Origin: a virus | Lineage: Duplodnaviria > Caudoviricetes | IMG/VR virus record: IMGVR_UViG_3300006467_000134 | Location: 32,001 to 96,000 of that record | Strand: one strand, 5' to 3' | Length of the DNA: 64,000 nucleotides | In this document: positions 3,705-62,275 of the stretch, piece after piece | How positions within the stretch are numbered: position 1 is the first letter of the stretch | How the letters are laid out: every line of letters begins with the position of its first letter | Notes under the pieces: generated by a model | What the model saw: only the letters and a program-made list of their open reading frames with translations | Told to the model about the DNA's origin: nothing | Database searches by the model: none | Position numbers and translations under genes: made by a program

Positions 3705-3984
3705 GATTGCTTCTCCTATTCTCGTTGACCCTAGCTCGCAAGTATTCCAGGGGAAGGCACAGCACATAAATCACTGCACCGATCAAGAGCACTACTAATA
3801 CAGCCGGCCAAAATGCTGCCACTGCTAGCGAGAGGGCTAAAAATGACACTTGTTGAAAAGACAGCGGAGCCTCACGCCCGTAAGGGTCAATAGGTGTAAC
3901 TACGTAGTGAATGTTACACAAAACTAGTGTGAGAACAAATGTGATTGCCCCACCATAGTAGTATGCAATTTCGTAATTGATCAT
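3694..3984 (-). CDS. Small membrane protein (paralog 1 of tandem trio)
   Basis: CNIHY...APL...WPAVLVV. Confidence 0.6.
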   Translation of the reverse strand: MINYEIAYYYGGAITFVLTLVLCNIHYVVTPIDPYGREAPLSFQQVSFLALSLAVAAFWPAVLVVLLIGAVIYVLCLPLEYLRARVNENRRSNHEL

Positions 3985-4898
3985 CGGTCAACTTCAGTAT
4001 TCAGAGAAACGATCTCTGCCTTAGTTGGGCGATTTCCAAAACCAAACTTTGGATCGCCCTGGGATGGTGTGAGGGTAACGGAGATCCTGATGACATCTCC
4101 ACGCTTCAAAACAGTTTGTACTTGTTCGCCATTAACCTCAGCTTCAAACAGCTGCAGGTCAGAAGGAATCGAGCAGTGCACCAGGTAGCCATCAGTGGTC
4201 TTAATGGTCATCTTGAAACTGTGTCCCCAGGCGGTGTCATTGACAGCCGTCTTCAGAACCGTTGCTTCAATCGTATGACGTCCAGTTGGGCAAGGAAGAG
4301 CTGCAGCCTTTTCAGCTTCTCGTTCTGCCTTAACCTTTTCCCGGTTGTCAATCTTCTCGAACAAGGTGTCCATGAAGTCCCATTGACCCTGGCTTAGGCT
4401 ACCGAACCGAACCAGCTTGGATACCATGTTGTGGATGGTAGCCTCTTCGTACAGCATGTTGACAGGGGATCCACTGTTGTAGATCTCCCAGGCAGCCAGC
4501 TTGTCACGCTCAGCCAGTAGGCCCTCAGCTTTGGCCTTGCCAGCCTTGGCCTTACGCCAGTCGCCAGCAGCTTTGGTTACCTTAGCAAACAGAGCAGGAT
4601 CACCCATGTCCAATTTGTCGGCACAATCGTTACCTACTTTGATGTAGGTGTTGGTGTCGGCATGGTAGAACACCAGCGAGTAGATCAGGCTGTTGCCACA
4701 GACGTGGCATTTTCCGCCTTCCTGGTGGTCAGCAAACTTTCCACCAGTTTTTTCCAGGTGCTCGCGGAAACGGGCTCGTTGCTCCTGCAGGAGGTAAACG
4801 TCACCCATGTCCTCGATTTTCTTGTGCAAAATAGCGATGAACTGGTAGTCTTCAGGTTGAATCACCGAGGGGCGGTGAATGTCAGTGCGAGTTGTCAT
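3981..4898 (-). CDS. Hypothetical early protein (CxxC motif; possible C-terminal OB-like domain)
   Basis: 305 aa; AGGAG RBS and own promoter; CHVCG...GNDC. Confidence 0.7.
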   Translation of the reverse strand: MTTRTDIHRPSVIQPEDYQFIAILHKKIEDMGDVYLLQEQRARFREHLEKTGGKFADHQEGGKCHVCGNSLIYSLVFYHADTNTYIKVGNDCADKLDMGDPALFAKVTKAAGDWRKAKAGKAKAEGLLAERDKLAAWEIYNSGSPVNMLYEEATIHNMVSKLVRFGSLSQGQWDFMDTLFEKIDNREKVKAEREAEKAAALPCPTGRHTIEATVLKTAVNDTAWGHSFKMTIKTTDGYLVHCSIPSDLQLFEAEVNGEQVQTVLKRGDVIRISVTLTPSQGDPKFGFGNRPTKAEIVSLNTEVDR

Positions 4899-4920
4899 AA
4901 TTGTTTCTCCTATGTTAGTG

Positions 4921-4948
4921 ATTCTAACAGACCCTGAAGACCTGTCAA
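4921..4948 (-). promoter_or_regulatory. sigma70-like promoter TTGACA-N16-TAGAAT with extended TG
   Basis: Minus strand ttgacaggtcttcagggtctgttagaat upstream of ATG at 4898. Confidence 0.7.
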
Positions 4949-4951
4949 CAG

Positions 4952-5170
4952 CTAATCTTGTTTTCCTATGTATCTTTCAATCCTGGATTCAATGTTACGC
5001 AGCCGGCTTTCGGCTGTCACGGTTAGGTTTTTATAGTGCACCCACTGGTTGATAAGATCCCTCAGTAGGGGATCCTCAACGTCAGGTACTCTATTCATCT
5101 TCAGCAAGCGAAGGATATAGTCCATCCAAAACCTCCTGGGGGATTCTCCCGCGGTATTGGCGATTCTCAA
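4952..5170 (-). CDS. Hypothetical protein
   Basis: 72-aa ORF; start uncertain. Confidence 0.4.
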   Translation of the reverse strand: MRIANTAGESPRRFWMDYILRLLKMNRVPDVEDPLLRDLINQWVHYKNLTVTAESRLRNIESRIERYIGKQD

Positions 5171-5306
5171 TCACCTCCTCCATGCAGGATAGGCAGTATT
5201 CGTGTGTTTCGTCATAAGGAGTCACGGGAGTGATGTGGCACCGAGCACAGATTTCCTCTCGGTCCTCACCAGCCTCCCATGCCCAGTCGCGTCCGCGATC
5301 TTGCAT
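5091..5306 (-). CDS. Small zinc-finger-like protein
   Basis: CARC...CLSC; AGGAG RBS. Confidence 0.5.
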   Translation of the reverse strand: MQDRGRDWAWEAGEDREEICARCHITPVTPYDETHEYCLSCMEEVIENRQYRGRIPQEVLDGLYPSLAEDE

Positions 5307-5308
5307 AA

Positions 5309-5593
5309 TTAACTCTCCTGATCTTTCTCAAACTTCTCCTGAGCTGCCAGTGCATTCTCGCGAGTAGAATACAAGCGAGTTGGTAGGGGCTCCAGATTTC
5401 CTGGGTCGCCTGTATCCAGGTTGATTCGATTTACAAACGATATCCAGTATCCCTCGTCTGGGCTTCCCTCAATTGAGTGGATTGGTCCAAGATCATAGAC
5501 TTTGTGGATACTATGCGGACTGTGCTCAAAAACAACCATCCCTGGGTACGCCAAAGTTCCGTCAGCCAGTTTTGGTAAATGATCAGTGTTCAT
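5309..5593 (-). CDS. Hypothetical protein
   Basis: AGGAG RBS with promoter directly upstream. Confidence 0.65.
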   Translation of the reverse strand: MNTDHLPKLADGTLAYPGMVVFEHSPHSIHKVYDLGPIHSIEGSPDEGYWISFVNRINLDTGDPGNLEPLPTRLYSTRENALAAQEKFEKDQES

Positions 5594-5622
5594 GATTAAC
5601 TCCTGTTAGGTTTGGAACCTTG

Positions 5623-5650
5623 ATTTTACCCAGTAAACTCTGGTTGTCAA
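5623..5650 (-). promoter_or_regulatory. sigma70-like promoter TTGACA-N16-TAAAAT
   Basis: Minus strand ttgacaaccagagtttactgggtaaaat. Confidence 0.7.
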
Positions 5651-5682
5651 CTAGAGTTTTATGAGTTCATCCAAGTTGTTTC

Positions 5683-5889
5683 CTACCAATAAAAGGTAAT
5701 TACGGGGTTGTTCTCTTTCCAAACGATCTGACCATTAGGATGCCGAGCAAACTCGGCAAACTTGGTGTTTCTTAGGCAAGGGTTTTCTTCGAGCAAAATT
5801 TCATTAACAATCTGGGTGGCATAGTATGCCAGGCGTCCATGGTGTTTAATGTACGCTTTTTTACGCTTTCGGGGAAGCTTCGGTTTCAT
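5683..5889 (-). CDS. Small basic hypothetical protein
   Basis: MKPKLPRKRKK; ATGA overlap with upstream gene. Confidence 0.55.
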   Translation of the reverse strand: MKPKLPRKRKKAYIKHHGRLAYYATQIVNEILLEENPCLRNTKFAEFARHPNGQIVWKENNPVITFYW

Positions 5890-6104
5890 TTTTGATCCCC
5901 TGACAAATTTGGAAGTTCAGTAATCTTTCGCCCGTCCAGGGCTGTTCCGCGGGCATTGCGGATCTGAGGACCACAGTTCGAGAAACCTCGACCTGCATAC
6001 ACCCAGTAGTTTCCATCGTCGCCTTCGTAGTAGGCGGCCAGTTCTTGCCAGGTTCCAACCAAGGTTAATTGAATGCCATTGTGACTTGTTGTTTTTGCGA
6101 ACAT
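5886..6104 (-). CDS. Hypothetical early protein
   Basis: Start moved to MFAKTT, after GGAG and downstream of promoter at 6140-6167. Confidence 0.55.
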   Translation of the reverse strand: MFAKTTSHNGIQLTLVGTWQELAAYYEGDDGNYWVYAGRGFSNCGPQIRNARGTALDGRKITELPNLSGDQK

Positions 6105-6139
6105 TGCGTTTCTCCGTGTTTTCGGTTGCGATGCTGTAG

Positions 6140-6167
6140 ATTTTACCAACCCGTCTGACAATTGCAA
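6140..6167 (-). promoter_or_regulatory. sigma70-like promoter TTGCAA-N16-TAAAAT with extended TG
   Basis: Minus strand ttgcaattgtcagacgggttggtaaaat. Confidence 0.6.
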
Positions 6168-6194
6168 TAGGAAAACTGAAAAATCTTTTTTGTC

Positions 6195-6223
6195 TTGCTT
6201 CTCTGTGGAATTCACTGTAAAAT
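6195..6223 (+). promoter_or_regulatory. Candidate promoter TTGCTT-N17-TAAAAT for plus-strand operon
   Basis: ttgcttctctgtggaattcactgtaaaat; divergent from the 6140-6167 promoter. Confidence 0.45.
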
Positions 6224-6310
6224 GTGGCGAAGTAACAGCGACTGTCAAAGATAACATCGTCAATGTTACCATTCAAACTTTCTGTTATTTTCCCCTTTTA
6301 GGAGACTCAC

Positions 6311-6532
6311 ATGTCCGACCTGAAGAACCTGACCGCCGAACCTCCTCGGCCAAAGACTCCCCGCGTGCGTTCGTTCGCGAGTGAGCTCGTGCCCGCCAGC
6401 CCAGATGCTCGCCGCCTGCGAAACAAGTGGTGGAAGCGTAGTGGCCTGGAGCACTACCAGCTACAAAAGAAACGCGAAGAATTCGTTCGTCGGCACAACC
6501 TCCAACCAATTGCTCCCCAGGTGGTAGAATGA
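6311..6532 (+). CDS. Small basic hypothetical protein
   Basis: AGGAGA RBS; ATGA overlap with next gene. Confidence 0.6.
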   Translation: MSDLKNLTAEPPRPKTPRVRSFASELVPASPDARRLRNKWWKRSGLEHYQLQKKREEFVRRHNLQPIAPQVVE

Positions 6533-6876
6533 ACGAAAAGAACATCCTACATAAAGTTACCAAACACAGTACCTGTCTAAAAGCGTTCGCCACGGGATCT
6601 CGCGTGTACGGACGCCCAAAGCCAGATTCAGACTACGATATCGTTCTCTGGGTTACGGAGGAGGAAAAACAACAGCTTATTTCCGCCAGTGAATCCGATG
6701 ATGGATTGACAATTCGATTTGGTCCGATTAACATCATTGCAGTCACAAACGCAACTGATTACTATCATTGGATGGACGCCAAAGATTGCTGCCGGCGAAA
6801 CTGTCCAGTGACGCGAGAAGAGGCGATTGAGATCCACAAACTGGAGAATATCACCGACGAGGAGTACCCCTTATAA
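6529..6876 (+). CDS. Minimal nucleotidyltransferase (Pol-beta superfamily)
   Basis: Signature ATGSRVYG...DSDYDI (hGS..DxD). Confidence 0.75.
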   Translation: MNEKNILHKVTKHSTCLKAFATGSRVYGRPKPDSDYDIVLWVTEEEKQQLISASESDDGLTIRFGPINIIAVTNATDYYHWMDAKDCCRRNCPVTREEAIEIHKLENITDEEYPL

Positions 6877-6905
6877 GGGAGCCCCTCAAATTCTGGAGAT
6901 TTATC

Positions 6906-7424
6906 ATGTCAAAGATTATGTCAGTGTCTTATACTCAAGGCCTGGCATTCTTGCGACCGGGTAGGCTGTTTACGACTTGGGAATTATTCTCAGTCGTTCT
7001 CAGCCTTTCTTTTTGTTGCTTGATGCCCCGTGCTTTGGAGTTTTCTCCCGAGCTCAGTCCTTGGATTTACTTGGAAGTTGTGCCTGTCCTGGCAGGTATC
7101 CTTACAGGCCTGGAGATCGGGTGGTTCTCCCGACTTAGCTACTGGGATATTTTCGTCAAAGAAAATGGATCAGACCCAACCATGGATAAGATCCTCTACT
7201 GGCCCTCAATCCCAACTCTTTCCCTGGTAGTTGGGTTTCTGAACTTTGCTAGTATCCTGATGCTTTTTGAAGGACAAAACCTCTGGGATCGGCTAACGCC
7301 GTCCTGTTGTTTCATGATTCCGATGTTCATAACTTTCTCTATCCTCGCAAACCTCATCGTTGTAGGCCCTGAGAGCCTCTATGAGGCCTCCTCTGAGTCA
7401 GGCGACTCCGAAGGCGAAATCTGA
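6906..7424 (+). CDS. Multi-pass membrane protein
   Basis: About 4 hydrophobic segments; GGAG RBS. Confidence 0.6.
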   Translation: MSKIMSVSYTQGLAFLRPGRLFTTWELFSVVLSLSFCCLMPRALEFSPELSPWIYLEVVPVLAGILTGLEIGWFSRLSYWDIFVKENGSDPTMDKILYWPSIPTLSLVVGFLNFASILMLFEGQNLWDRLTPSCCFMIPMFITFSILANLIVVGPESLYEASSESGDSEGEI

Positions 7425-7454
7425 GAGAACGTTGATTCTAGGTACCAAATTTTG

Positions 7455-7483
7455 GACAGGAGCTATGCTTCCTGTCTTTTTTT
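7455..7483 (+). terminator. Intrinsic terminator of plus-strand operon
   Basis: gacagga-gctatgct-tcctgtc followed by T7. Confidence 0.75.
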
Positions 7484-7539
7484 ATGCTTACACAGGACCT
7501 GGTCCACAGTTTTCGAAAGTTTTAGCAGACTGCGGGCAT

Positions 7540-7575
7540 AAAAAAACCTACCAGCATCGCTAAATACTGGTAGGT
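7540..7575 (-). terminator. Intrinsic terminator of minus-strand operon
   Basis: Minus strand acctaccagtat-ttagcg-atgctggtaggt followed by a T run. Confidence 0.7.
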
Positions 7576-7651
7576 CCAATCTCAAACAGGAGAGAGCTGC
7601 TTGACTGAAAGATAGATCAAGTTTTTTTTTTCTTTTTTTTTTCTGAAGAAA

Positions 7652-7906
7652 TTAGTTTTCTTCTGAAAATTCTTCTCGAAGACTTTGGACAACCGCGGCA
7701 TGGGCTTTCATCAATTCCTCCAGGAATCCTTTGTGGCCTGAGTGTCCTGAATAACCCTCACCAGCTGGCACAAAGAATGCCACTCTTCCCTTGTCTACAA
7801 TTAGGAGCTGCCTCGGCTTACTGGATTCTTCGGGCTCCAGGACGGCAGTGTATCCCAAGGTCTTGGCGATATTATAGATGATCACCAGGTCATCATAGGT
7901 TAGCAT
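7652..7906 (-). CDS. Hypothetical protein
   Basis: 84-aa ORF, last gene of operon. Confidence 0.55.
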   Translation of the reverse strand: MLTYDDLVIIYNIAKTLGYTAVLEPEESSKPRQLLIVDKGRVAFFVPAGEGYSGHSGHKGFLEELMKAHAAVVQSLREEFSEEN

Positions 7907-8115
7907 ATCTTTGTGTCCTTTGTAGGATAGTTGTCAATGATCTTTTTGGCCGCCTCACAATCATACTTCATTTTCAAGAGTGATTGCTTTAGGATCTCGA
8001 TTGCCTCCTGGCTTATCGATGTCCCCTTGAAGTCCGCCAGTTCCTGTAGGAATTCCTTGACCCACAAGTCTTCCTCTTTGAAGTACAGATGCTGCTTTCC
8101 TTTGGAGCTGCTCAT
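7900..8115 (-). CDS. Ribbon-helix-helix-like DNA-binding protein
   Basis: Short beta strand (QHLYF), then helix-G-TSISQEAIEIL pattern. Confidence 0.5.
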   Translation of the reverse strand: MSSSKGKQHLYFKEEDLWVKEFLQELADFKGTSISQEAIEILKQSLLKMKYDCEAAKKIIDNYPTKDTKIC

Positions 8116-9277
8116 AGAAGTCCTCGAAGCTTGTAGGGTATTGAATGTGGATCTCTTGAGCCTCGGCAGGTGTTAGTTGCCCAGGAACTGGGAGATCGGT
8201 TTCAAGATCATAGTAGATCTTTACCAATCGCTGGAACGTCTTGTTGTTCAAGTACCCAACTTCGAATTGGCGATCCATACGACCAGGTCGCTTGAAGGCT
8301 GGGTCCAAGTTATCTGGGTGATTCGAGGTGAAGATCAAAATACTACCTTCCCCTGCCGTTGGTCCATCGATTAGGTTTAGTAGAGTACTGGTCATCGCTG
8401 ACAGAGGAACTTCATCGATTTCGTCTTGATCTTCCGCATTAAACGGGTCTTCCTCTTTATTAGAGGTTTTACGCTTTTGGGTTGCCTTCTGACAATCGAA
8501 GTCCTCAAAGACAACCACGCAGTCACCCAACTGCAATGCGTTATCAACGTTCCATACGTACTGGGTAAATACGTACAGATCTCGTTGTAGGTAATTGGCA
8601 ATCGCCAAACCCAAAGAGCTCTTACCAGTTCCAGGAGGACCATAAAAGAGATAACCACGTCGATAAGGAATACCTCGGTGCTCATACCATTCCCTGTTGT
8701 TAACAAACCAATCTAAGTCTGCTTTGAGCTCGTCTGAGAAGTCAATGGCCAAGTCTTCCAGACGACGAGTCTTCAGGGTTTTTCTTTCATTGTCGTTGAA
8801 CTTGGCCTTCAATGGAGTAACACTCCGGGCTTTGTTAATGTAGTCCTGTACCTCCTGCTTGACGGCATTACGACGCCAGCCAAAGATATCGATGTGAATA
8901 CTATAGACTACTGGAGGATCGCCTTTCTTGGCCATTTGCATCTCACGTCGGTTGTGATAATAACTCACGTAACACCAACGTGTGAATCCCCATCGGAATC
9001 CGCCAGGGACTTTTTCCTTAAAGTCGGCATCCTCAATGTCAAAGAATGTTCCAAAACTGCTATTACCGTGTTTCTCCATCAAGTATTTACACGCCGGCAC
9101 GTAGTCAGGGGAGCCACTCTCAAAGCGGAGAGTGATGGTCGTGTAATAAGAAAACCTATCCCACACGTATGCGGGATAGGATCGAATCTGATAGAGGAAA
9201 CTGGTTAGCAAGGCCATTACGATACCACCAGACATAAACTGGTTGTTCTGAAGCTGGTTTGCAAACCATTCCCACAT
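7961..9277 (-). CDS. BCS1-like membrane-anchored AAA+ ATPase
   Basis: N-terminal TM (NQFMSGG...); WYEHRGIPYRRGYLFYGPPGTGKSS; Walker B VFEDFD; LLNLIDG; TSNHPDNLDPAFKRPGRMD. Confidence 0.85.
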   Translation of the reverse strand: MWEWFANQLQNNQFMSGGIVMALLTSFLYQIRSYPAYVWDRFSYYTTITLRFESGSPDYVPACKYLMEKHGNSSFGTFFDIEDADFKEKVPGGFRWGFTRWCYVSYYHNRREMQMAKKGDPPVVYSIHIDIFGWRRNAVKQEVQDYINKARSVTPLKAKFNDNERKTLKTRRLEDLAIDFSDELKADLDWFVNNREWYEHRGIPYRRGYLFYGPPGTGKSSLGLAIANYLQRDLYVFTQYVWNVDNALQLGDCVVVFEDFDCQKATQKRKTSNKEEDPFNAEDQDEIDEVPLSAMTSTLLNLIDGPTAGEGSILIFTSNHPDNLDPAFKRPGRMDRQFEVGYLNNKTFQRLVKIYYDLETDLPVPGQLTPAEAQEIHIQYPTSFEDFYEQLQRKAASVLQRGRLVGQGIPTGTGGLQGDIDKPGGNRDPKAITLENEV

Positions 9278-9278
9278 A

Positions 9279-10901
9279 CTATACTCCTACTTTGTCAATA
9301 AGGATTGTTTGAGCTCGGTCTTGAATATCCAGCCAGTCCTGCATGAAGACTTCGCCGTCCAGGAACACTACCTTCAGTTCACCGCCCTCCTCTTCGTCCC
9401 GGGTACAGGATTGCTGAAGAGTGTAGTTTCCATTGGTACCATTCACTCGAAGCAAGCCACAAGCAGACTTTTTGGTTCCACTGTCAGTGACTGGATCTTT
9501 GAACAACTCGTGTTCTACTCCGTCTACCTGAGCCCAGGTTGCCTTACATGCTAATCCGAAAGTATCGCGAGTATTGTACTGATAAGTGAAACTTCCAATA
9601 CCAAGCACAACGTTGGTCGTGGCGAAATCACGTTCCATCAGTCGTTCGAAGATTTCTGTGGCTCGATCATAAGTGATTGCATCGCCGTAAATACAACCAA
9701 CATGTGGATCCAGCTCTTTGAAACCTTTGGAATTGAAGGTAGTACCAAACTCTTCAGCCAGTAGGCGGACAACTCCCTTAATCTCAGGCTCTTTGATTTC
9801 TCGTCCTTCCAATGTCACGTAGCCATCGGAACACTTCATAGCGTCTGCCCGATAGTGAATCAAAGACAGGTAAAGATCCTGGTCTTTCTTCAACTCTCGT
9901 CGAGCTTCCTCGCAGGTTCCATCGTAATCCATAGTACGATATCCGCACAGGATTAGTACTGGATCGCCAGAATCAGGTCGGAAGACGACTTTCCCGTCTC
10001 GCTTCATGATCTTGTCCTTCAGGTGAGGGGCAATCTCAAGCAGCACTTTCCAAAGGTCCCACGTATCGATGACAATACTGATGAAACCTTCTGGATAAAG
10101 CTCCGAGATCAGTCGATCTACAGTGTGGAGCTCGTTTACCTTACCACCAGCACACATCACGGCATGTTCAGTCGCTGGCACGGAAACAGACGTATCCCGG
10201 GGAGCCTTGTACCAGTGCCGAACCGCGGCCTTACCTGGTAGAGTGTCACTGCCTTTGAAGAACAACAGGTGACCCATGTCAGTGGTAATCGAAGATTCCA
10301 CACTGCTCATACCACGCATCGAGAAGTTGTGCCCTTGGAAGGGAACAAAATCAGGGTTGCCAGTACGCTCAGCATAGTCACTCATCAGCTCCCAGAAACG
10401 ACGAGCAATGGTAGCCGCTGTGATTGGGTTCCAAATAGTATTCTGACATACGGTTTCAATCGCATTGGTTAACCAGCCAAAGTTTGGATCAGTATTCTCA
10501 ATAGTAGCCAGTGGAACACCAATTGGACACAATACGCCTTCGGGAAGAGCCTTGATACGAAGTGGGAGGTACCCCAGGTCATGGAGTTCACCATAACGTG
10601 AGACGTCCACAGCACCTGGTCCAAAGTACTCGTCGAAGTATTCTTTGAGCTCTGCCAGAACCCGGGCCTTTGGACGATCAAAGAAATTCGTGTTGAACTC
10701 AACTACCAAGTACTTCAGCATGAAATACTGTAGACCAAAGTTCACAACATGGTTCACACCTGGAATCCGGCTGGTACGAGGAGTAATGTTGGCATTTACG
10801 TACTCCGTGTTTTCCGGGTATTGTGGTGGGTGAGATATCTTGTAGGCATCTGCCAGAATGATTGGGTTGATGCGAAGGTCACTGTATTCAAATCGTGTCA
10901 T
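9279..10901 (-). CDS. nadV: Nicotinamide phosphoribosyltransferase-like protein (Nampt/NadV family; likely Namat of NARP1)
   Basis: ADAYKISH, SVPATEHAVM, SIVIDTWD, RPDSGDP, IYGDAIT, FKDPVTDSGTKKSA; start MTRFEY coupled by ATGA to upstream gene. Confidence 0.9.
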   Translation of the reverse strand: MTRFEYSDLRINPIILADAYKISHPPQYPENTEYVNANITPRTSRIPGVNHVVNFGLQYFMLKYLVVEFNTNFFDRPKARVLAELKEYFDEYFGPGAVDVSRYGELHDLGYLPLRIKALPEGVLCPIGVPLATIENTDPNFGWLTNAIETVCQNTIWNPITAATIARRFWELMSDYAERTGNPDFVPFQGHNFSMRGMSSVESSITTDMGHLLFFKGSDTLPGKAAVRHWYKAPRDTSVSVPATEHAVMCAGGKVNELHTVDRLISELYPEGFISIVIDTWDLWKVLLEIAPHLKDKIMKRDGKVVFRPDSGDPVLILCGYRTMDYDGTCEEARRELKKDQDLYLSLIHYRADAMKCSDGYVTLEGREIKEPEIKGVVRLLAEEFGTTFNSKGFKELDPHVGCIYGDAITYDRATEIFERLMERDFATTNVVLGIGSFTYQYNTRDTFGLACKATWAQVDGVEHELFKDPVTDSGTKKSACGLLRVNGTNGNYTLQQSCTRDEEEGGELKVVFLDGEVFMQDWLDIQDRAQTILIDKVGV

Positions 10902-56599: not shown

Positions 56600-56633
56600 A
56601 AAAACAAAAAGAGAGCCTCTATTACAGAGGCTC
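56600..56633 (-). terminator. Intrinsic terminator after the 155-aa decoration gene
   Basis: gagcctct-5 nt-agaggctc followed on minus strand by tctttttgttttt. Confidence 0.75.
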
Positions 56634-56639
56634 AGTGAC

Positions 56640-57107
56640 TTACGCCAAAATATCCCATTCGCCGGTTGCACCTGCTACCAAAGTAACAGAAGCGTTATCA
56701 GCCAACGAAGCAAGAGTTCCATTGATCGTAGCAGCAGTGGAGACCGTCCACGAGTTACCGGATACGTTGTTGATCCGCAGGATCTTGCCAACATCAGCAG
56801 CAGCTGGGCTGTGCAGAGTCAAAGTTTTGCTCGCACCGGCAGTCAGTCGAATGTAGGTACCAAAGTCAGCGGATACCGTAGTGTAATCATCTGTCTTAGA
56901 TTGAATCGTGAGTTTGAACAAGCTCAGCATCGTCTCAGCGATCTGCTTAAAGTTCTCGTTCAAAAGAATTTTGCCGTTTTCCGAGTCTACCGAGTCTGTC
57001 ATGTTGAACAGAGCCAACATTTCATACGCATATCCATTTGCAGACATGAACGTAGTAGGCGAGGTAGCTTGGGCAGTGGCGTCATCAAAACCGGGCCAAA
57101 CTGGCAT
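56640..57107 (-). CDS. Head decoration/short fibre protein
   Basis: Near capsid gene; SKTDDYT...TLTL...VGK.L.I.N fibre-like C-terminal domain. Confidence 0.65.
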   Translation of the reverse strand: MPVWPGFDDATAQATSPTTFMSANGYAYEMLALFNMTDSVDSENGKILLNENFKQIAETMLSLFKLTIQSKTDDYTTVSADFGTYIRLTAGASKTLTLHSPAAADVGKILRINNVSGNSWTVSTAATINGTLASLADNASVTLVAGATGEWDILA

Positions 57108-57130
57108 AGTAAAGGACCTTTCAAAGTTAA

Positions 57131-57207
57131 ATGGCTGCCATCATCAGGCACTGCCCACCACGGTCAGTGCGAAACAAGGCAGTCCGAAGACTGCCCTGCT
57201 TTTCGGC
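57131..57207 (-). ncRNA. Type II hammerhead ribozyme (HH2), predicted cleavage UUC| between 57171 and 57170
   Basis: GCC-GAAA-AGCAGGGCAGUC(UUCG)GACUGCCUUGUU-UC|GCACUG..CAGUGC-CUGAUGA-U-GGC; loop GUGGU can pair with downstream GCCAU. Confidence 0.85.
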
Positions 57208-57209
57208 TT

Positions 57210-57875
57210 TTATTCAGGGAAATTTAGGTAGGCAAATTCACCAAACAGCTCTTTTGCTTTTTCATCATAAGCCTTTGCAGCTTCCAGTGCTGTATTGAAC
57301 CTACCAAGATGGTGAATTTTTCCCTTATGCTGGAGTCTAGCAATATATTGATACTTGGTTTTGTTCTTCATTAGGCGTTTAGTTACTCCTTTATAACCAG
57401 ATTTACAGTTTTTCTGCGGACCTGAATTTAAAACGTTTTGAGTCAAAGAGCATAAACGCAAGTTCGACTTTCTATTGTTTAGTGGGTTTCTATCAATATG
57501 ATCCACTATTTCATCGGGAAGAAGGGATCTTCCTAAAGAAAGCTCCATTACCAATCTATGAAGTTTCGTCGGTCTGGGTCTATGTGAAAAACCGTACCCA
57601 TTTTGTAGGTGCCAGTTCTGCTTATAAAGTGTATCCCAATATTCGGGATCTACCAAAAGCTTATCTCCTGCTTTAGTGTATATAACAGATTTATCTTCTT
57701 GATCTGGAAAATTCAAAGGGAGATAAGGACTAATATCTTTGGCCTTTTTATCGTAGGCTCTGGCAGCTTCCTCAGGGGTTGGAAATGTGCCAAGATAATG
57801 GCGTTTCTTGTCTACTTGAATTTCAGCGGCAAATTTCCCATCTTTTTTGGGCCATACACCACGTAACTTTTTCAT
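57210..57875 (-). CDS. HNH homing endonuclease with two AP2 DNA-binding domains
   Basis: AP2 (YLGTF.TPEEAARAYD..LNFP), HNH (LHRLVM...DHIDRNPLNNRKSNLR), AP2 (SGYKGV...LGRF.TALEAAKAYD...GEFAYLNFP). Confidence 0.92.
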   Translation of the reverse strand: MKKLRGVWPKKDGKFAAEIQVDKKRHYLGTFPTPEEAARAYDKKAKDISPYLPLNFPDQEDKSVIYTKAGDKLLVDPEYWDTLYKQNWHLQNGYGFSHRPRPTKLHRLVMELSLGRSLLPDEIVDHIDRNPLNNRKSNLRLCSLTQNVLNSGPQKNCKSGYKGVTKRLMKNKTKYQYIARLQHKGKIHHLGRFNTALEAAKAYDEKAKELFGEFAYLNFPE

Positions 57876-57889
57876 TTTACTTCCTTTGT

Positions 57890-57962
57890 AACCTATGACT
57901 CATCAGGAGGCTTTCGGTCGATAGCCTCGACTAAGAAGACAGTAAGTCTTCTTAGTTTCGTC
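57890..57962 (-). ncRNA. Type II hammerhead ribozyme (HH1), predicted cleavage GUC| between 57929 and 57928
   Basis: GAC-GAAA-CUAAGAAGAC(UUACU)GUCUUCUUAG-UC|GAGGCU..AGCCUC-CUGAUGA-GUC; loop GACC can pair with downstream GGUU. Confidence 0.9.
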
Positions 57963-57989: not shown

Positions 57990-59048
57990 CTAACTAGGGT
58001 CAGTCGGGTTGTGATTAACTGGAGCCGTACCAGCCGAGCAGATGCCAGTAGCTGGCGTTCCGCACAGACGCAGGTTCTTAACCAGGACAACCATGTCAGG
58101 GTTTTCAACCATGAAGTCAGCTTCCCACCACATGGTGTATTCGAAGCTGTCACAACGAGGCTTACGTTCACGCTCAATCGACAATTCGCGACCGGTAACG
58201 TAGATCAGGTTGCTCAATGGCGTGTAAACCATGTAAGTACCGTCAGTTTCCCCGCCACCATTGTCCAGGTTTTCTGGCCAGTTGTTAACGCGGAAGACAG
58301 ATTCACCAAGTGGGTTGACGCCTTGGCCGCCACTCAGGATGATCTGATCACCCAGGTTGGTAGCTCGGCTGGTCAACTGCTGTACCCATCGGTTGTACAG
58401 GCGAGGACCCAGTACCCATCGATACTGATCCAATTCGCTCAAATACTCAACAGGGATGCGGTTCTGGATTTCGAACAACAGTTCGGTAGAGATACCAGCA
58501 CCAGCAGCGTCGATAATTTGGGTGGAGGGAACGCAAGACTTCAACAGACGGATGAAACCGTCGTTAACGCCCAACAGGTTGTTCAGATCGGATTGACTGT
58601 CGCCAGTAGGAATAGCGGTGTCGCCCATAACAGCGGCACGTTCCATGTCAACAGCAATACGCTTCTGGAATTGACCCAGCAACGTTTGGGTTACTTGCTC
58701 CCGTTCGACGTTGTAACGCAGGAAGTCACTCTTTACCGAAAAGAAGCTTCCATACTTTTCCAAGTCGTAGGTCAGCATCGAGTCGGTAGGACGAGATTCC
58801 TGAGGGCAGCTCGTAGCATGAGCACCCTGAGAAACAACACCACCGAGGTCCAGACGGTGGATCTTACCTTTACGGTTGTCCACTCGCATGGTACGAATAT
58901 TTTGCAACAGGTTTGAGGTGTTGCGAACCATGTCGAAGAAACGGTCGGACTGAGTCCGATCCAACATGGCGTTAGGGTTGGTTGCTTCGCTGATCGGGAT
59001 TTGACAGCCCTTAATCAGATCAACCATTTCAAGTTTGCCACTCATCAA
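57990..59048 (-). CDS. Major capsid protein (HK97 fold)
   Basis: LDRTQSDRF....NTS.LL; DME..A..GD; NDGF; position after protease/scaffold. Confidence 0.9.
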   Translation of the reverse strand: MMSGKLEMVDLIKGCQIPISEATNPNAMLDRTQSDRFFDMVRNTSNLLQNIRTMRVDNRKGKIHRLDLGGVVSQGAHATSCPQESRPTDSMLTYDLEKYGSFFSVKSDFLRYNVEREQVTQTLLGQFQKRIAVDMERAAVMGDTAIPTGDSQSDLNNLLGVNDGFIRLLKSCVPSTQIIDAAGAGISTELLFEIQNRIPVEYLSELDQYRWVLGPRLYNRWVQQLTSRATNLGDQIILSGGQGVNPLGESVFRVNNWPENLDNGGGETDGTYMVYTPLSNLIYVTGRELSIERERKPRCDSFEYTMWWEADFMVENPDMVVLVKNLRLCGTPATGICSAGTAPVNHNPTDPS

Positions 59049-59057
59049 GTGTTTTCC

Positions 59058-60518
59058 TTATACGAAAAATTGGCCGAACAAGTCCTGGTCAGTCACTTCG
59101 CCGCTGTCGCCCTTAGCGACTTCTCGGCGTTCCTCACGGTTGGTCAAGTTGATCTTCAGGAGACCAGACAGATCATTCAAGATTTCACTCTTGATGGCTT
59201 CTGCCAATTCTTCTGCGGATTCTTGAGCAGGTGCTGACTCTTGCTTAGGGGGATCTTGTTCTTGTTCTTGAGAGGGCAATCGAGCTTCAAAAGCTTCGAA
59301 TCGCTTGTTGAAGTCATCCTGCATTTTAGCCAACTGGGCTACCAGGGCATCATTTGCAGAAGGTTCTTGTGTTGGTTCTTGAGTTGCTTCAGCAGCTGGT
59401 TCAGTGGCCTTAGCAGGTTCTGCAGGAGCAGCCTGTAGTGCTTCAAAATCAGCTTCTTGCAAATCAATGTGTACAACTTCTTGCTTTGCTGCTTCACCTT
59501 CTTCATTGGTGATTTCTTCCGACTTCAGAACTTCCTTTTTGCAATTTGGGAAGTACTTGTCGATCAGACCTTCATCAACCAGGCAGACTCGCAAGGACTT
59601 AACTACTTGAGTTTCTTCACTCACAGTGTTATCCTCTACTGGAATATCATTAAGTTCGCCGACTTGCTCGGCATTAGAAGAATCATGATCTAATCGTGCA
59701 GCAGTGACGACCGAAACATCACCTAGCTTAACTAGGTAACTCTTTTCGATGTCAAACTGAGCCTGGTCTTGAACCACAGCAAAGTAGTCCGTGTCATTCT
59801 CAGTGATGGATGTATATTCAATTCCCCGAGCCTGTAAATAAGCTTTCGCTACATCAACAGTTGGGTAGTAACTCTTGGACAGTTTGAATTTGATAATCTC
59901 AGTAGGCACAGCCTCAGAGGTTTCAAAATCAACAGATTTTCCAATAGTCAGGGCAGACGAAGTGTGCTGCGGCATGTGTACGATACTGATTTCCTTGAGG
60001 TCAATCATCTTCAGTAGGTCATAAGGTTGTCCGATATCGACACCTTTAACCAACTGAACAAGACCACGCCAGGAAAATGCACCTAGATGCCCTTTCAGTA
60101 CTTCCTCTTTGGCCAAATCATTTGTTACTTCTGCAACAACAAAGAGTCCGCGGTCACCGACTTTCAAATCGGGGTAGCGTTTTACAGGAAGTCGATTAAT
60201 GACTTCCATGTTTCTAGCAGAAGAGATAACAAACTCATCGTCCTCTTGGTCGGAAATAAAGGCAGCTTCAGCCTCCCTGACTACACCTGCAGAAACATCA
60301 TTCCCGTGAGGGTCTTTGATGAACTTGTGATCCCGCAGCAAAGTACCAGTGTTGAGAAATGTGTCAACATTGAACTCGGAAGCAGGAGCGAAGTGATTTT
60401 GTCGATCAGGAGACTCAACAGAAGCAAAACCCTTAACGAATACCGACTGATCCGATTCTTGAATGTCCGCAGCTAACGCTGAAGAACCTTCAATCATTTC
60501 GTAGGTTGGTAGAGACAT
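59058..60518 (-). CDS. Prohead protease fused to scaffold region
   Basis: VKGFASVESPDRQ, LLRDH, GAFS, EISIV..P; acidic Ala/Glu/Pro-rich C-terminus. Confidence 0.85.
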   Translation of the reverse strand: MSLPTYEMIEGSSALAADIQESDQSVFVKGFASVESPDRQNHFAPASEFNVDTFLNTGTLLRDHKFIKDPHGNDVSAGVVREAEAAFISDQEDDEFVISSARNMEVINRLPVKRYPDLKVGDRGLFVVAEVTNDLAKEEVLKGHLGAFSWRGLVQLVKGVDIGQPYDLLKMIDLKEISIVHMPQHTSSALTIGKSVDFETSEAVPTEIIKFKLSKSYYPTVDVAKAYLQARGIEYTSITENDTDYFAVVQDQAQFDIEKSYLVKLGDVSVVTAARLDHDSSNAEQVGELNDIPVEDNTVSEETQVVKSLRVCLVDEGLIDKYFPNCKKEVLKSEEITNEEGEAAKQEVVHIDLQEADFEALQAAPAEPAKATEPAAEATQEPTQEPSANDALVAQLAKMQDDFNKRFEAFEARLPSQEQEQDPPKQESAPAQESAEELAEAIKSEILNDLSGLLKINLTNREERREVAKGDSGEVTDQDLFGQFFV

Positions 60519-62275
60519 TAAGTTTGCTCACTTTCAGGATCAACATTATCATCCGTAGATGGAGGAGTATCCTGCGTTTGAGTCGCTGTTTGGTCTACAG
60601 CAGTCGTTGGTAAATCATTTAAATCCTGAATCTTCAAAATCTGTCCACCAGATGTGCGGAGGAAGTTAACATTACCACCAGGAATGGATTCCATTCCAAG
60701 GTTAGTACGAACTTCATTGATATCCTTAACACCATTCAACAAGTACATTTGATCAACTTCAGCCTGCATTCGCATATCGCGAACATCGTAAGGATCAAAC
60801 TTGATGTAGCTGTGAATAATTCCCAGGCCTTTAGAGAGTAGCCTGTAGATTTGGTTTTGCCAGTATTTCTGGCGAGGTGTTACGATACGATCTTTGTACA
60901 GTTCAGCTTGAGACAATCCTTTACCTGAGCCAAGCTCTGCGGACTCAGCGATACCAAGAATTGCTGGGCTTGTTCCATGAGCTACCTGAATAGCTTGTGA
61001 GTTTGCTTTGTAAGTCTCAAGGAAGTCTGCTTCCTTTCGATCAGCCTCAACTCGTTCGAACTTTACAGAGACAGTCTTTCCGGCTCTATGTGGAATCGCC
61101 AATACCATTGTCTTATGGTATTGACCACGTACTTCCTTCGAAAAGTATTCCGTAATCGTCTTGCGGAACTCTGCATCGACATTGGCACCCTCAACAATAA
61201 CAGCATATCGTGGTACTGTATTGTTGTCGAAGAATTGACTAGTATAGTCTTTGATTCGGGTGTTCGTTTGAATCGCTGAGAGAGCTGGTATTGCATCACA
61301 GAAGCCATAGTAGATAGTATTAGGGTGTGAGTTAACTAACCACAAAACTTCATTTGCTGATTCCAAGACATTATCAGTAGTTTCTCCAGTTTTTGGATCT
61401 ACGAGGTTCCACTCGGCTTTAGCCTTATCCAACGGCCCGTGCTTGACTGGGTCGTACGGTTCATAATAATCACGTTTCTTGGATCCGACTTTAATTGATT
61501 TTCGTACACGAACCTTCTCACCGAAATTCTGATAGTAGGTATATTGCGTTGTACCATTGACATCGCTCTCCTCTACAAAACCTTCCCAGTTACGAAGGAC
61601 TTTTATCCTAGCAGCCGGAATGTGTTGGATGTGCTCGATCTTTTTCGTGATGGGGTTACGAGTAACCTCGATAGCAGCCCATCCAATAGCTTCCCAATCT
61701 TGGGCTGCATTTCGGAGAACTTCTTCAAATCCCAACCGCGGATTGCAGTCATGGATAAAGGTTCTAATCTCTTCCAGTTCGGAATTGAACAACGACTTTG
61801 GAATTACTTCCTGACCCTCAGCTAGCTGTTCAATCTCGTCGTCCTCGATGACCTTTTTGAAGGAGTCAATCGTGTAGTTTCGATTTACAGCATCTGTGAC
61901 TTTGGTTCGTACTGCTCGGTAGTGAACTTCATTAGTGTGTAAAAGATCAGCTACTTTTCGTGGGCAGTATGGAGGATCAATAACGTGCCATTTACCTTGC
62001 AGAGCATAATGGTAAATGTCTGACTGATTAATCTCATCTGCACTCTGATTTAACCCTTCGATACCTTTAAGAACTTCTGTTCTTTTAAAGCCAGGGATAT
62101 CAATTTCGGTGTAGGTATCCACCTTTCTGGTGGAAAGACCACTCCAAATTTCAGAGATTCCCTTTGCTAGGTCAGCAGATAAGGTGAAGTGAACTTCTCC
62201 GTCAGAGCCTTCAGTAATGAAGCCAGTGACTACAGGCTCTTCGAATTCAGTTGTTTGCTTCATTCTTTTATCCAA
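60518..62275 (-). CDS. Portal protein
   Basis: GWAAIEV.R, HIPA, NEV, YYG, FFDNNTVP, INEVR..LGM..IPGG. Confidence 0.92.
   Translation of the reverse strand: MDKRMKQTTEFEEPVVTGFITEGSDGEVHFTLSADLAKGISEIWSGLSTRKVDTYTEIDIPGFKRTEVLKGIEGLNQSADEINQSDIYHYALQGKWHVIDPPYCPRKVADLLHTNEVHYRAVRTKVTDAVNRNYTIDSFKKVIEDDEIEQLAEGQEVIPKSLFNSELEEIRTFIHDCNPRLGFEEVLRNAAQDWEAIGWAAIEVTRNPITKKIEHIQHIPAARIKVLRNWEGFVEESDVNGTTQYTYYQNFGEKVRVRKSIKVGSKKRDYYEPYDPVKHGPLDKAKAEWNLVDPKTGETTDNVLESANEVLWLVNSHPNTIYYGFCDAIPALSAIQTNTRIKDYTSQFFDNNTVPRYAVIVEGANVDAEFRKTITEYFSKEVRGQYHKTMVLAIPHRAGKTVSVKFERVEADRKEADFLETYKANSQAIQVAHGTSPAILGIAESAELGSGKGLSQAELYKDRIVTPRQKYWQNQIYRLLSKGLGIIHSYIKFDPYDVRDMRMQAEVDQMYLLNGVKDINEVRTNLGMESIPGGNVNFLRTSGGQILKIQDLNDLPTTAVDQTATQTQDTPPSTDDNVDPESEQT

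What the first reader, a model, noticed from the sequence alone, without database searches (positions are those of the whole stretch)
57131..57962. Homing endonuclease gene bracketed by two hammerhead ribozymes: a self-excising RNA cassette in the capsid operon
Seen in sequence: both intergenic gaps around the intact AP2-HNH-AP2 gene are almost entirely filled by sense-strand type II hammerheads. The two share the core and topology but not stem sequences, so structure appears to be under selection. Established: hammerhead cleavage leaves 5'-OH and 2',3'-cyclic phosphate ends, which are substrates for RtcB-type or ribozyme ligation. Prediction: double cleavage releases a 758-nt RNA (57928-57171) holding the RBS and the whole HNH ORF. 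Inference: (a) this RNA circularises, as ribozyme-flanked RNAs do in retrozymes; (b) the flanks rejoin, a hammerhead-based analogue of an intron; or (c) cleavage insulates capsid and decoration mRNAs from the invading gene and tunes their stability. Either ligation junction would rebuild a chimeric hammerhead with a mismatched stem II, which would disfavour re-cleavage. Single phage hammerheads are known; I do not know of a described pair enclosing a homing endonuclease.
Basis: partly seen in the sequence, partly recalled or inferred. Interest (0 to 1): 0.95.

Follow-up and report, generated by a model that had tools for sequence, protein, structure and literature searches.

The report
Two hammerhead ribozymes flanking a homing endonuclease
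A selfish DNA-cutting (HNH) gene sitting behind the capsid gene of an uncultured phage really is flanked by two self-cutting hammerhead RNAs, but one is the phage's own post-capsid ribozyme and the other came in with the selfish gene, so the layout is best read as ordinary phage mRNA trimming, a pattern described in 2011, rather than a new kind of RNA intron or circle.

Summary
Two type II hammerheads lie on the coding (minus) strand at 57897-57962 (HH1) and 57129-57207 (HH2). They fill the gaps around an intact AP2-HNH-AP2 gene, and the predicted cuts at 57929|57928 and 57171|57170 would release 758 nt. They are the only such motifs in the 105.6-kb genome (0.017 expected by chance). Across six homologous copies, 12 of 19 stem pairs show compensatory changes.

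Relatives explain the layout. An HNH-free relative (L135) carries the HH2 orthologue (89% nt identity, above the Rfam cut-off) directly after the capsid stop codon and before the same 155-aa gene. HH2 is therefore the resident ribozyme, and spacer+HH1+HNH was inserted exactly between the stop codon and that ribozyme. HH1-type ribozymes also occur after the capsid gene without any HNH (L003 lineage), or with a different HNH and no HH2 (L002 lineage). More distant relatives have an intrinsic terminator at this position.

The most likely function is processing of the late head mRNA, which keeps the native ends of the capsid and 155-aa messages despite the insertion. Circular or spliced RNA is untested and nothing here supports it. 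Hammerhead pairs around single phage genes, and these same hypotheses, were published in 2011 (PMC3088659). This scan holds only first-reader notes on this same DNA.

The parts
57990..59048 (-). Major capsid protein gene (352 aa), ending NHNPTDPS-stop
   Evidence: PHROG 1623 virion structural protein, E 6e-58; weak Pfam Phage_cap_P2; tblastn hits to annotated major capsid proteins
57897..57962 (-). HH1, type II hammerhead. Stem II GAC 57960-57962 / GUC 57897-57899; GAAA 57956-57959; stem III hairpin 57930-57956; C17 at 57929 (cut 57929|57928); stem I hairpin 57907-57928; CUGAUGA 57900-57906. Possible pseudoknot between loop GACC 57916-57919 and tail GGUU 57890-57893.
   Evidence: Homologues after the capsid gene in L010, L002 and L003 with compensatory changes. 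Not recognised by Rfam RF02276.
57210..57875 (-). AP2-HNH_3-AP2 free-standing homing endonuclease gene (221 aa); RBS AAGGAAG lies 5 nt before the ATG
   Evidence: Pfam AP2 8e-14 and HNH_3 2e-11; PHROG 99 HNH endonuclease 3e-57. It is the only HNH_3 gene in the genome. It is absent from the same site in L135 and L003.
57129..57207 (-). HH2, type II hammerhead and the resident post-capsid ribozyme. Stem II GCC 57205-57207 / GGC 57137-57139, with one inserted U at 57140; GAAA 57201-57204; stem III 57172-57201; C17 at 57171 (cut 57171|57170); stem I hairpin 57148-57170; CUGAUGA 57141-57147; pseudoknot tail AGCCAUUU 57129-57136.
   Evidence: RF02276 35.1 bits, E 4.5e-5. Its orthologue in L135 is 89% identical, scores 38.4 bits (above the cut-off of 37), and lies directly after the capsid stop codon.
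56640..57107 (-). 155-aa gene of unknown function, the first gene downstream of the resident ribozyme
   Evidence: No Pfam or PHROG hit. Homologues follow the ribozyme in L135, L002 and L010.
56613..56633 (-). Intrinsic terminator-like hairpin plus U-tract, just after the 155-aa gene
   Evidence: 9-bp stem with 5 GC pairs, tail TCTTTTTGTT

Best explanation
Both elements are functional cis-cleaving type II hammerheads in the late head-gene transcript, which runs portal, 486-aa gene, capsid, HNH and the 155-aa gene, and ends at the terminator at 56613-56633.

HH2 is the phage's own post-capsid ribozyme. In the HNH-free relative L135 it starts right at the capsid stop codon. It cuts the polycistronic RNA so that the capsid message ends in the stem III hairpin with a 2',3'-cyclic phosphate. 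The 155-aa message then begins with a 5'-OH and the stem I hairpin. In more distant relatives an intrinsic terminator fills this position.

A free-standing AP2-HNH-AP2 homing endonuclease gene later entered exactly between the capsid stop codon and this ribozyme. It brought (or was co-converted with) a second ribozyme, HH1, of the type that is resident after the capsid gene in other lineages.

Result: HH1 restores a short hairpin-capped 3' end to the capsid mRNA. HH2 keeps the native 5' end of the downstream mRNA. The HNH message is released as a separate 758-nt RNA with its own RBS. The twin layout is therefore a by-product of homing that happens to insulate the host operon.

Shown here: the motifs, their conservation and covariation, the empty site, and the mosaic distribution. 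Inferred: cleavage in vivo, the effects on mRNA stability, and the direction and mechanism of the insertion.
For: - The motifs are real. They are the only two in the genome against 0.017 expected. 93.9% of cells pair and 12 of 19 pairs are compensatory. Rfam gives 35.1 bits for HH2 and 38.4 bits for its L135 orthologue.
- Empty site. L135 reads capsid (..NHNPTDPS-stop) - hammerhead - 155-aa gene with no HNH. Its hammerhead is 89% identical to window HH2, and its 155-aa gene is 82% identical at the nucleotide level.
- HH1-type ribozymes occur without HNH in the L003 lineage. They also occur with a different HNH (41% aa identity), its own promoter-like TTGACT-17-TATAAT and no HH2 in the L002 lineage.
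- L010 has HH1 (82% nt identity to the window's) plus an HNH (73% aa identity) plus a second hammerhead. Its HNH C-terminus runs into a copy of the capsid tail (..YLN|NPTDPA-stop; direct repeat 3862-3877 / 4653-4668). This fits an insertion into the capsid tail upstream of a resident ribozyme.
- Mosaicism. The 155-aa gene is 86.5% identical between window and L002 but 52% between window and L010. HNH is 73% identical between window and L010 but 41% between window and L002.
- Relatives with 45-60% capsid identity have an intrinsic terminator at this position.
- Literature. Multiple hammerheads flank single genes in prophages, all cleave in vitro, and processing into single-gene mRNAs was proposed (PMC3088659). 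The 2019 review PMC6765202 says the same.
Against: - Cleavage, 3'-end protection and any effect on expression are unproven.
- HH1 is not recognised by Rfam's type II model.
- HH2 carries an inserted U between A9 and G10.1, whose effect on activity was not tested.
- Only five lineages carry the ribozyme, so the order of events rests on parsimony. It is not settled whether HH1 came as part of the mobile cassette or as the donor's flank.
- Among 125 other IMG/VR hammerheads, the upstream genes show no enrichment for capsid genes. A 'post-capsid ribozyme' is therefore specific to this lineage, not a general rule.
Confidence: 0.7

Rival explanations
1. Ribozyme-insulated mobile cassette. HH1 is a functional, co-mobile part of the selfish element, so HH1+HNH travel as one unit. 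It was selected because it repairs the capsid mRNA 3' end that the insertion would otherwise destroy. This would be analogous to the way a self-splicing intron makes its endonuclease harmless, but by cleavage rather than splicing.
For: HH1 and HNH are shared between window and L010 (82% nt, 73% aa), although the right flanks differ strongly (155-aa gene 52% aa). Three of four HH1-type ribozymes sit immediately upstream of an HNH gene (window, L010, L002). The insertion in the window lies exactly between the capsid stop codon and the resident ribozyme, so without HH1 the capsid mRNA would carry about 780 nt of extra 3' sequence.
Against: An HH1-type ribozyme occurs after the capsid gene with no HNH in the L003 lineage (five contigs). 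Simple co-conversion of the donor's resident ribozyme explains the same data. Among 118 other hammerhead-bearing IMG/VR loci only one, besides the copy of the L002 contig, has an HNH_3-like gene, and that gene is not flanked by hammerheads. The L002 HNH has its own promoter-like site between the ribozyme and the gene.
Confidence: 0.2
2. Hammerhead-based excision with ligation. After double cleavage the 758-nt HNH RNA is circularised, as in retrozymes, and/or the flanking capsid and 155-aa RNAs are rejoined, giving an intron analogue. Ligation would be by ribozyme reversal or by a host RtcB-type ligase.
For: The ends produced (2',3'-cyclic phosphate and 5'-OH) are RtcB substrates (established chemistry). 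In L010 the chimeric junction hammerheads would have a matched GAC/GUC stem II. The phage encodes an Rnl-family ligase (PF09414 plus a PHA02142 OB-fold).
Against: - The phage has no RtcB and no polynucleotide kinase/phosphatase, so its Rnl-type ligase could not seal these ends unaided.
- In the type II topology the two cleavage fragments are held together only by a 3-bp stem II.
- Chimeric stem II is mismatched in the window (GAC/GGC and GCC/GUC) but matched in L010, so there is no conserved design.
- Rejoining has no evident benefit, because each gene has its own RBS.
- The L002 lineage keeps an HNH with a single ribozyme.
- Perreault et al. looked for spliced and circular products in comparable phage arrays and found none (PMC3088659).
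Confidence: 0.07
3. One or both motifs are inactive relics, or act mainly as hairpins. Stem III of HH2 could act as a leaky terminator, and stem III of HH1 as a 3' stabiliser, without catalysis.
For: Stem III of HH2 is a GC-rich hairpin followed by UUGUUU. Distant relatives use true terminators at this position. HH2 has a core insertion. HH1 fails the Rfam model.
Against: All invariant core nucleotides are intact in all six copies, while the stems covary. The inserted U and the loop/tail pseudoknot partners of HH2 are conserved in L135. The loop I/tail pairing covaries among HH1-type copies: GACC/GGUU, GACUU/AAGUU, UAAC/GUUG (read). A plain hairpin would not need CUGAUGA and GAAA.
Confidence: 0.05

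Closest known systems
Clustered type II hammerheads flanking single genes in prophages (Perreault et al. 2011, PLoS Comput Biol, PMC3088659; Rfam RF02276)
   Same: Same ribozyme class and topology, with a pseudoknot between loop I and the 3' tail. The copies lie on the same strand in consecutive intergenic gaps of a phage operon and bracket one gene. The proposed role is also the same, cutting a polycistronic RNA into single-gene mRNAs.
   Different: Here the bracketed gene is a homing endonuclease in the capsid operon. Relatives also show how the pair arose, as a resident ribozyme plus one imported with the insertion. HH1 belongs to a subtype that the Rfam model does not score.
Free-standing HNH homing endonuclease genes inserted behind phage capsid genes (T4-type mob/seg genes; earlier scan note e1-5161334 on another phage, with a 22-base duplication of the capsid 3' end)
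   Same: An AP2/HNH_3 gene sits immediately after the capsid stop codon. It is present or absent among close relatives. In L010 the capsid tail is duplicated at the right junction. Its phylogeny disagrees with that of the flanking genes.
   Different: The insertion is bracketed by self-cleaving RNAs. Nuclease activity and the target site were not tested.
Group I intron plus homing endonuclease; retrozymes and viroid-like hammerhead circles
   Same: A selfish gene or RNA lies between catalytic RNA elements that could remove it at the RNA level. The cleavage chemistry gives ligatable ends.
   Different: Nothing here supports ligation or circularisation. The flanked RNA interrupts no ORF, so no splicing is needed. 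There is no reverse transcriptase and there are no repeats, unlike retrozymes.
Post-capsid intrinsic terminators / 3' stabilising hairpins in phage late operons
   Same: The position immediately after the capsid stop codon is the same in relatives with 45-60% capsid identity (L136-L143). Both elements leave the capsid mRNA ending in a stable hairpin.
   Different: The ribozyme cuts the RNA without stopping the polymerase, so downstream genes are still transcribed.

Membership tests
Hammerhead ribozyme, type II (RF02276) | Conserved core: C3-U4-G5-A6-N7-G8-A9, G12-A13-A14, an A15.1-U16.1 pair, and H17 (not G) at the cleavage site | tested here: met
   HH1 has CUGAUGA, GAAA, A-U and C17. HH2 has the same plus one extra U after A9. 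The core is intact in all six homologous copies.
Hammerhead ribozyme, type II (RF02276) | Three helices around the core with type II permutation: stems I and III closed by loops, stem II open | tested here: met
   Order: stem II strand - GAAA - stem III hairpin - cut - stem I hairpin - CUGAUGA - stem II strand. MFE folds recover stems I and III.
Hammerhead ribozyme, type II (RF02276) | Helices supported by covariation | tested here: met
   93.9% of cells pair; 12 of 19 pairs have changes on both sides; 0 of 500 shuffles reach this; slid controls give at most 3 pairs.
Hammerhead ribozyme, type II (RF02276) | Score at or above the Rfam gathering threshold (37 bits) | tested here: inconclusive
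   HH2 scores 35.1 bits, just below. Its orthologue in L135 scores 38.4 bits, above. HH1-type copies get no type II hit at E<=1 (window at E<=10).
Hammerhead ribozyme, type II (RF02276) | Pseudoknot between loop I and the 3' tail, typical of the family | tested here: met
   The HH2 loop CGUGGUGG and tail AGCCA align to the Rfam consensus. HH1-type copies pair GACC/GGUU (window, L010), GACUU/AAGUU (L002) and UAAC/GUUG (L003); these were read by eye and not scored formally.
Hammerhead ribozyme, type II (RF02276) | Site-specific self-cleavage | not testable with these tools
Free-standing HNH homing endonuclease gene | HNH nuclease domain with DNA-binding modules, intact ORF | tested here: met
   AP2 x2 plus HNH_3; PHROG 99; 3266 homologues.
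Free-standing HNH homing endonuclease gene | Sporadic presence or absence at one locus among close relatives, and a phylogeny that disagrees with the flanks | tested here: met
   Absent in L135 and L003, present in window, L010 and L002. Identity matrix.
Free-standing HNH homing endonuclease gene | Cleaves the HNH-free allele near the insertion site | not testable with these tools
   Needs an enzyme assay on L135-type DNA.
Ribozyme-flanked circular RNA (retrozyme/viroid-like) or hammerhead 'intron' | A circular or rejoined RNA product exists | not testable with these tools
   No RNA data. No RtcB or PNK in the phage.
Ribozyme-flanked circular RNA (retrozyme/viroid-like) or hammerhead 'intron' | The two ribozymes are always present together with the enclosed element | tested here: not met
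   The L002 lineage has an HNH with one ribozyme. L135 and L003 have a ribozyme without HNH.

The most novel reading that the evidence does not exclude
HH1+HNH is a single mobile unit: a homing endonuclease that carries its own hammerhead. Wherever it lands behind a highly expressed gene, the host message is cut free with a proper hairpin end, and the nuclease gets its own short mRNA with a 5'-OH and a hairpin cap. This would be a cleavage-based counterpart to the intron-endonuclease partnership. It may use the conserved ribozyme-coding DNA at the capsid stop codon as its homing target.
Probability: 0.2. Interest if true: 0.7.

Novelty: new member of a known kind. Interest (0 to 1): 0.4.

Why it matters
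The biological role of the hundreds of phage hammerheads is still open (PMC6765202). This locus offers a natural experiment: the same capsid operon exists with a terminator, with one ribozyme, with one ribozyme plus a selfish gene, and with two ribozymes around that gene. It makes two ideas testable. One is that a ribozyme can replace a terminator to set the 3' end of the capsid mRNA while letting transcription continue. The other is that a selfish insertion is tolerated because a second ribozyme restores that end. It does not provide evidence for a new RNA-splicing or circular-RNA mechanism.

Tried and rejected
- Rfam at the gathering threshold over the whole window found nothing. Only a local E-value search finds HH2.
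- DNA search of the INPHARED phage collection found no match. Capsid tblastn there gave only relatives of at most 26% identity.
- IMG/VR searches with the capsid, the capsid alignment, the HNH and the 155-aa protein gave only two lineages. The metagenome scan added near-duplicates. The informative relatives (L010, L135) came from exact-protein look-ups.
- General link between hammerheads and HNH genes: rejected. Among 118 IMG/VR loci found with the HH1 core pattern, only the copy of the L002 contig and one other locus (L077) contain an HNH_3-like ORF, and the L077 gene is not flanked.
- General link between hammerheads and capsid genes: rejected. The ORFs upstream of 125 other hammerheads are mostly PHROGs of unknown function.
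- 'The PTDPS capsid tail is co-converted with the cassette': rejected, because the HNH-free L135 has the same tail.
- Direct repeats around the insert in the window: none convincing. Only L010 shows the duplicated capsid tail.
- Phage-encoded RtcB or PNK: none found.

Full report
**What is there**

The window is part of a complete 105,608-bp IMG/VR virus genome with direct terminal repeats. On the minus strand the order is: portal gene (60518-62275), a 486-aa gene, the major capsid gene (57990-59048), an AP2-HNH_3-AP2 gene (57210-57875), and a 155-aa gene of unknown function (56640-57107). An intrinsic terminator-like hairpin follows at 56613-56633.

Both gaps around the HNH gene contain a sense-strand type II hammerhead.
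- HH1 (57897-57962) reads GAC-GAAA, a perfect stem III, GUC|, stem I GAGGCU/AGCCUC, CUGAUGA-GUC.
- HH2 (57129-57207) reads GCC-GAAA, a 13-pair stem III, UUC|, stem I GCACUG/CAGUGC, CUGAUGA-U-GGC.

**Is it more than chance?**

A descriptor scan of the whole genome on both strands finds only these two sites with stems of at least 6 bp. Sixty dinucleotide shuffles give 0.017 sites per genome.

Rfam gives no hit at the gathering threshold. In a local search HH2 scores 35.1 bits for Hammerhead_II (cut-off 37) at E 4.5e-5, and its loop and tail align to the family's pseudoknot consensus. HH1 is not scored as type II.

Homologous copies were found in relatives: HH1 in L010, L002 and L003; a second hammerhead in L010; and an HH2 orthologue in L135. 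In a six-sequence alignment (five of these copies plus window HH1; the L135 copy was not included), 93.9% of cells pair and 12 of 19 pairs carry changes on both sides. No shuffle of 500 reaches this, and controls with slid partners give 36-46% pairing and at most 3 such pairs. All core nucleotides are invariant. I take both as genuine hammerheads. Cleavage itself is inferred.

**Relatives explain the layout**

| Lineage | Capsid aa identity to window | After the capsid gene |
|---|---|---|
| Window, plus six near-identical contigs from other samples | – | HH1 - HNH - HH2 - 155-aa gene |
| L135 | 78% | One hammerhead starting at the stop codon, then the 155-aa gene (82% nt); no HNH |
| L010 | 77% | HH1 (82% nt) - HNH (73% aa) - second hammerhead - divergent 159-aa gene (52% aa) |
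| L002 lineage (five contigs) | 84% | HH1-type ribozyme, promoter-like TTGACT-17-TATAAT, a different HNH (41% aa), no second ribozyme, 155-aa gene (87% aa) |
| L003 lineage (five contigs) | 75% | HH1-type ribozyme; no HNH and no 155-aa gene |
| Relatives L136-L143 | 45-60% | An intrinsic terminator instead of a ribozyme; L138/139 also have an unrelated HNH_3 gene between two terminators |

- The L135 hammerhead is 89% identical to window HH2. It has the same stem I, loop, inserted U and tail, and it scores 38.4 bits, above the Rfam cut-off.
- The L010 HNH C-terminus reads ..YLN|NPTDPA-stop. That end repeats the capsid tail (direct repeat 3862-3877 / 4653-4668) directly before the second hammerhead.

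**Reading**

HH2 is the resident post-capsid ribozyme. Relative to L135, the window has an insertion of spacer+HH1+HNH placed exactly between the capsid stop codon and the first base of that ribozyme.

HH1 belongs to a ribozyme subtype that is itself resident after the capsid gene in other lineages. The simplest history is that the endonuclease first sat downstream of such a ribozyme. When it invaded genomes of the L135 type, the donor's ribozyme was carried along and the recipient's ribozyme was kept. The capsid-tail remnant in L010 looks like the scar of such an event. The HNH (window close to L010) and the 155-aa gene (window close to L002 and L135) give conflicting groupings, which shows that the block moved horizontally.

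**How it most likely works**

The transcript is cut at both ribozymes.
- The capsid mRNA ends about 60 nt after its stop codon, in the 10-bp stem III hairpin with a cyclic phosphate.
- The 155-aa mRNA keeps its native 5'-OH end capped by the stem I hairpin.
- The HNH message becomes a separate RNA with its own RBS.

This matches what the terminator does in distant relatives, except that transcription continues downstream. This step is inference. It fits the 2011 proposal for phage hammerhead clusters, where all tested ribozymes cleaved in vitro, and the 2019 review.

**Circular RNA or splicing**

Nothing here supports either.
- The phage has no RtcB and no end-healing kinase/phosphatase. It has only an Rnl-family ligase.
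- After cleavage a type II hammerhead holds its two fragments by a 3-bp stem II only.
- The mismatched chimeric stem II is specific to the window. In L010 both chimeras would be perfectly matched.
- The L002 lineage maintains an HNH with a single ribozyme.
- Perreault et al. looked for such products in comparable arrays and found none.

I could not examine RNA, so this remains untested rather than excluded.

**How unusual is it?**

About 40 of them have two or more same-strand hammerheads, and one has 12 within 5.4 kb (L087). Pairs around single genes are therefore common.

There is no general tie to HNH genes or to capsid genes.

The new elements are modest. The flanked gene is a homing endonuclease. 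The state series among relatives shows how a pair can arise. And the ribozyme and a terminator are interchangeable at the capsid 3' end.

The earlier notes of this scan on this stretch are first-reader notes on the same genome. One of them, e1-5842902 ('insertion into, or duplication of, a single post-capsid hammerhead'), is borne out by L135 as far as insertion next to a single resident ribozyme goes.

**Verdict**

It is a new member of a known kind, of moderate interest.

Noticed in passing
L002:3293-3321 (also L144-L146): The different HNH gene of the L002 lineage is preceded by a near-consensus sigma-70-like promoter (TTGACT, 17 nt, TATAAT) lying between the hammerhead and the gene. The window's HNH has no such site and only an RBS.
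   Followed up: partly
L002:4100-4180: In the L002 lineage the 155-aa homologue has lost the conserved ATG. The N-terminal ..AVWPGF.. is in frame behind ATT AGG, and a TAA lies just upstream. The resident ribozyme seen in L135 and the window is missing there. This may be a deletion linked to that HNH insertion, or use of an ATT start.
   Followed up: partly
L138:3540-4500 and L139: A relative with 57% capsid identity has an unrelated HNH_3 gene directly behind the capsid gene, bracketed by two different intrinsic terminators. This is a terminator version of the twin-ribozyme layout.
   Followed up: partly
L087 (IMGVR_UViG_3300025889_000748), about 4100-9550 on the minus strand: Twelve same-strand type II hammerhead candidates lie within about 5.4 kb, roughly one per small gene. 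L066 and L131 have 7-9.
   Followed up: no
G000:C1:4566-5825 (outside the window; L147:946-2205): The phage encodes an Rnl-family RNA ligase (PF09414 with a PHA02142 OB-fold domain) between thymidylate synthase and a 5'-nucleotidase. No RtcB or PNK was found in the genome.
   Followed up: partly
L010:4757-4772: A run of about 14 C directly follows the second hammerhead of L010. It could be an assembly artefact or a homopolymer tract.
   Followed up: no
window 56613-56633 (-): A strong intrinsic terminator-like hairpin right after the 155-aa gene marks the probable end of the head-gene transcript.
   Followed up: no
window 59058-60518 (-) and 56640-57107 (-): The 486-aa gene between portal and capsid and the 155-aa gene after the ribozyme have no Pfam or PHROG match. 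Calling the 155-aa protein a 'decoration' protein is unsupported.
   Followed up: partly
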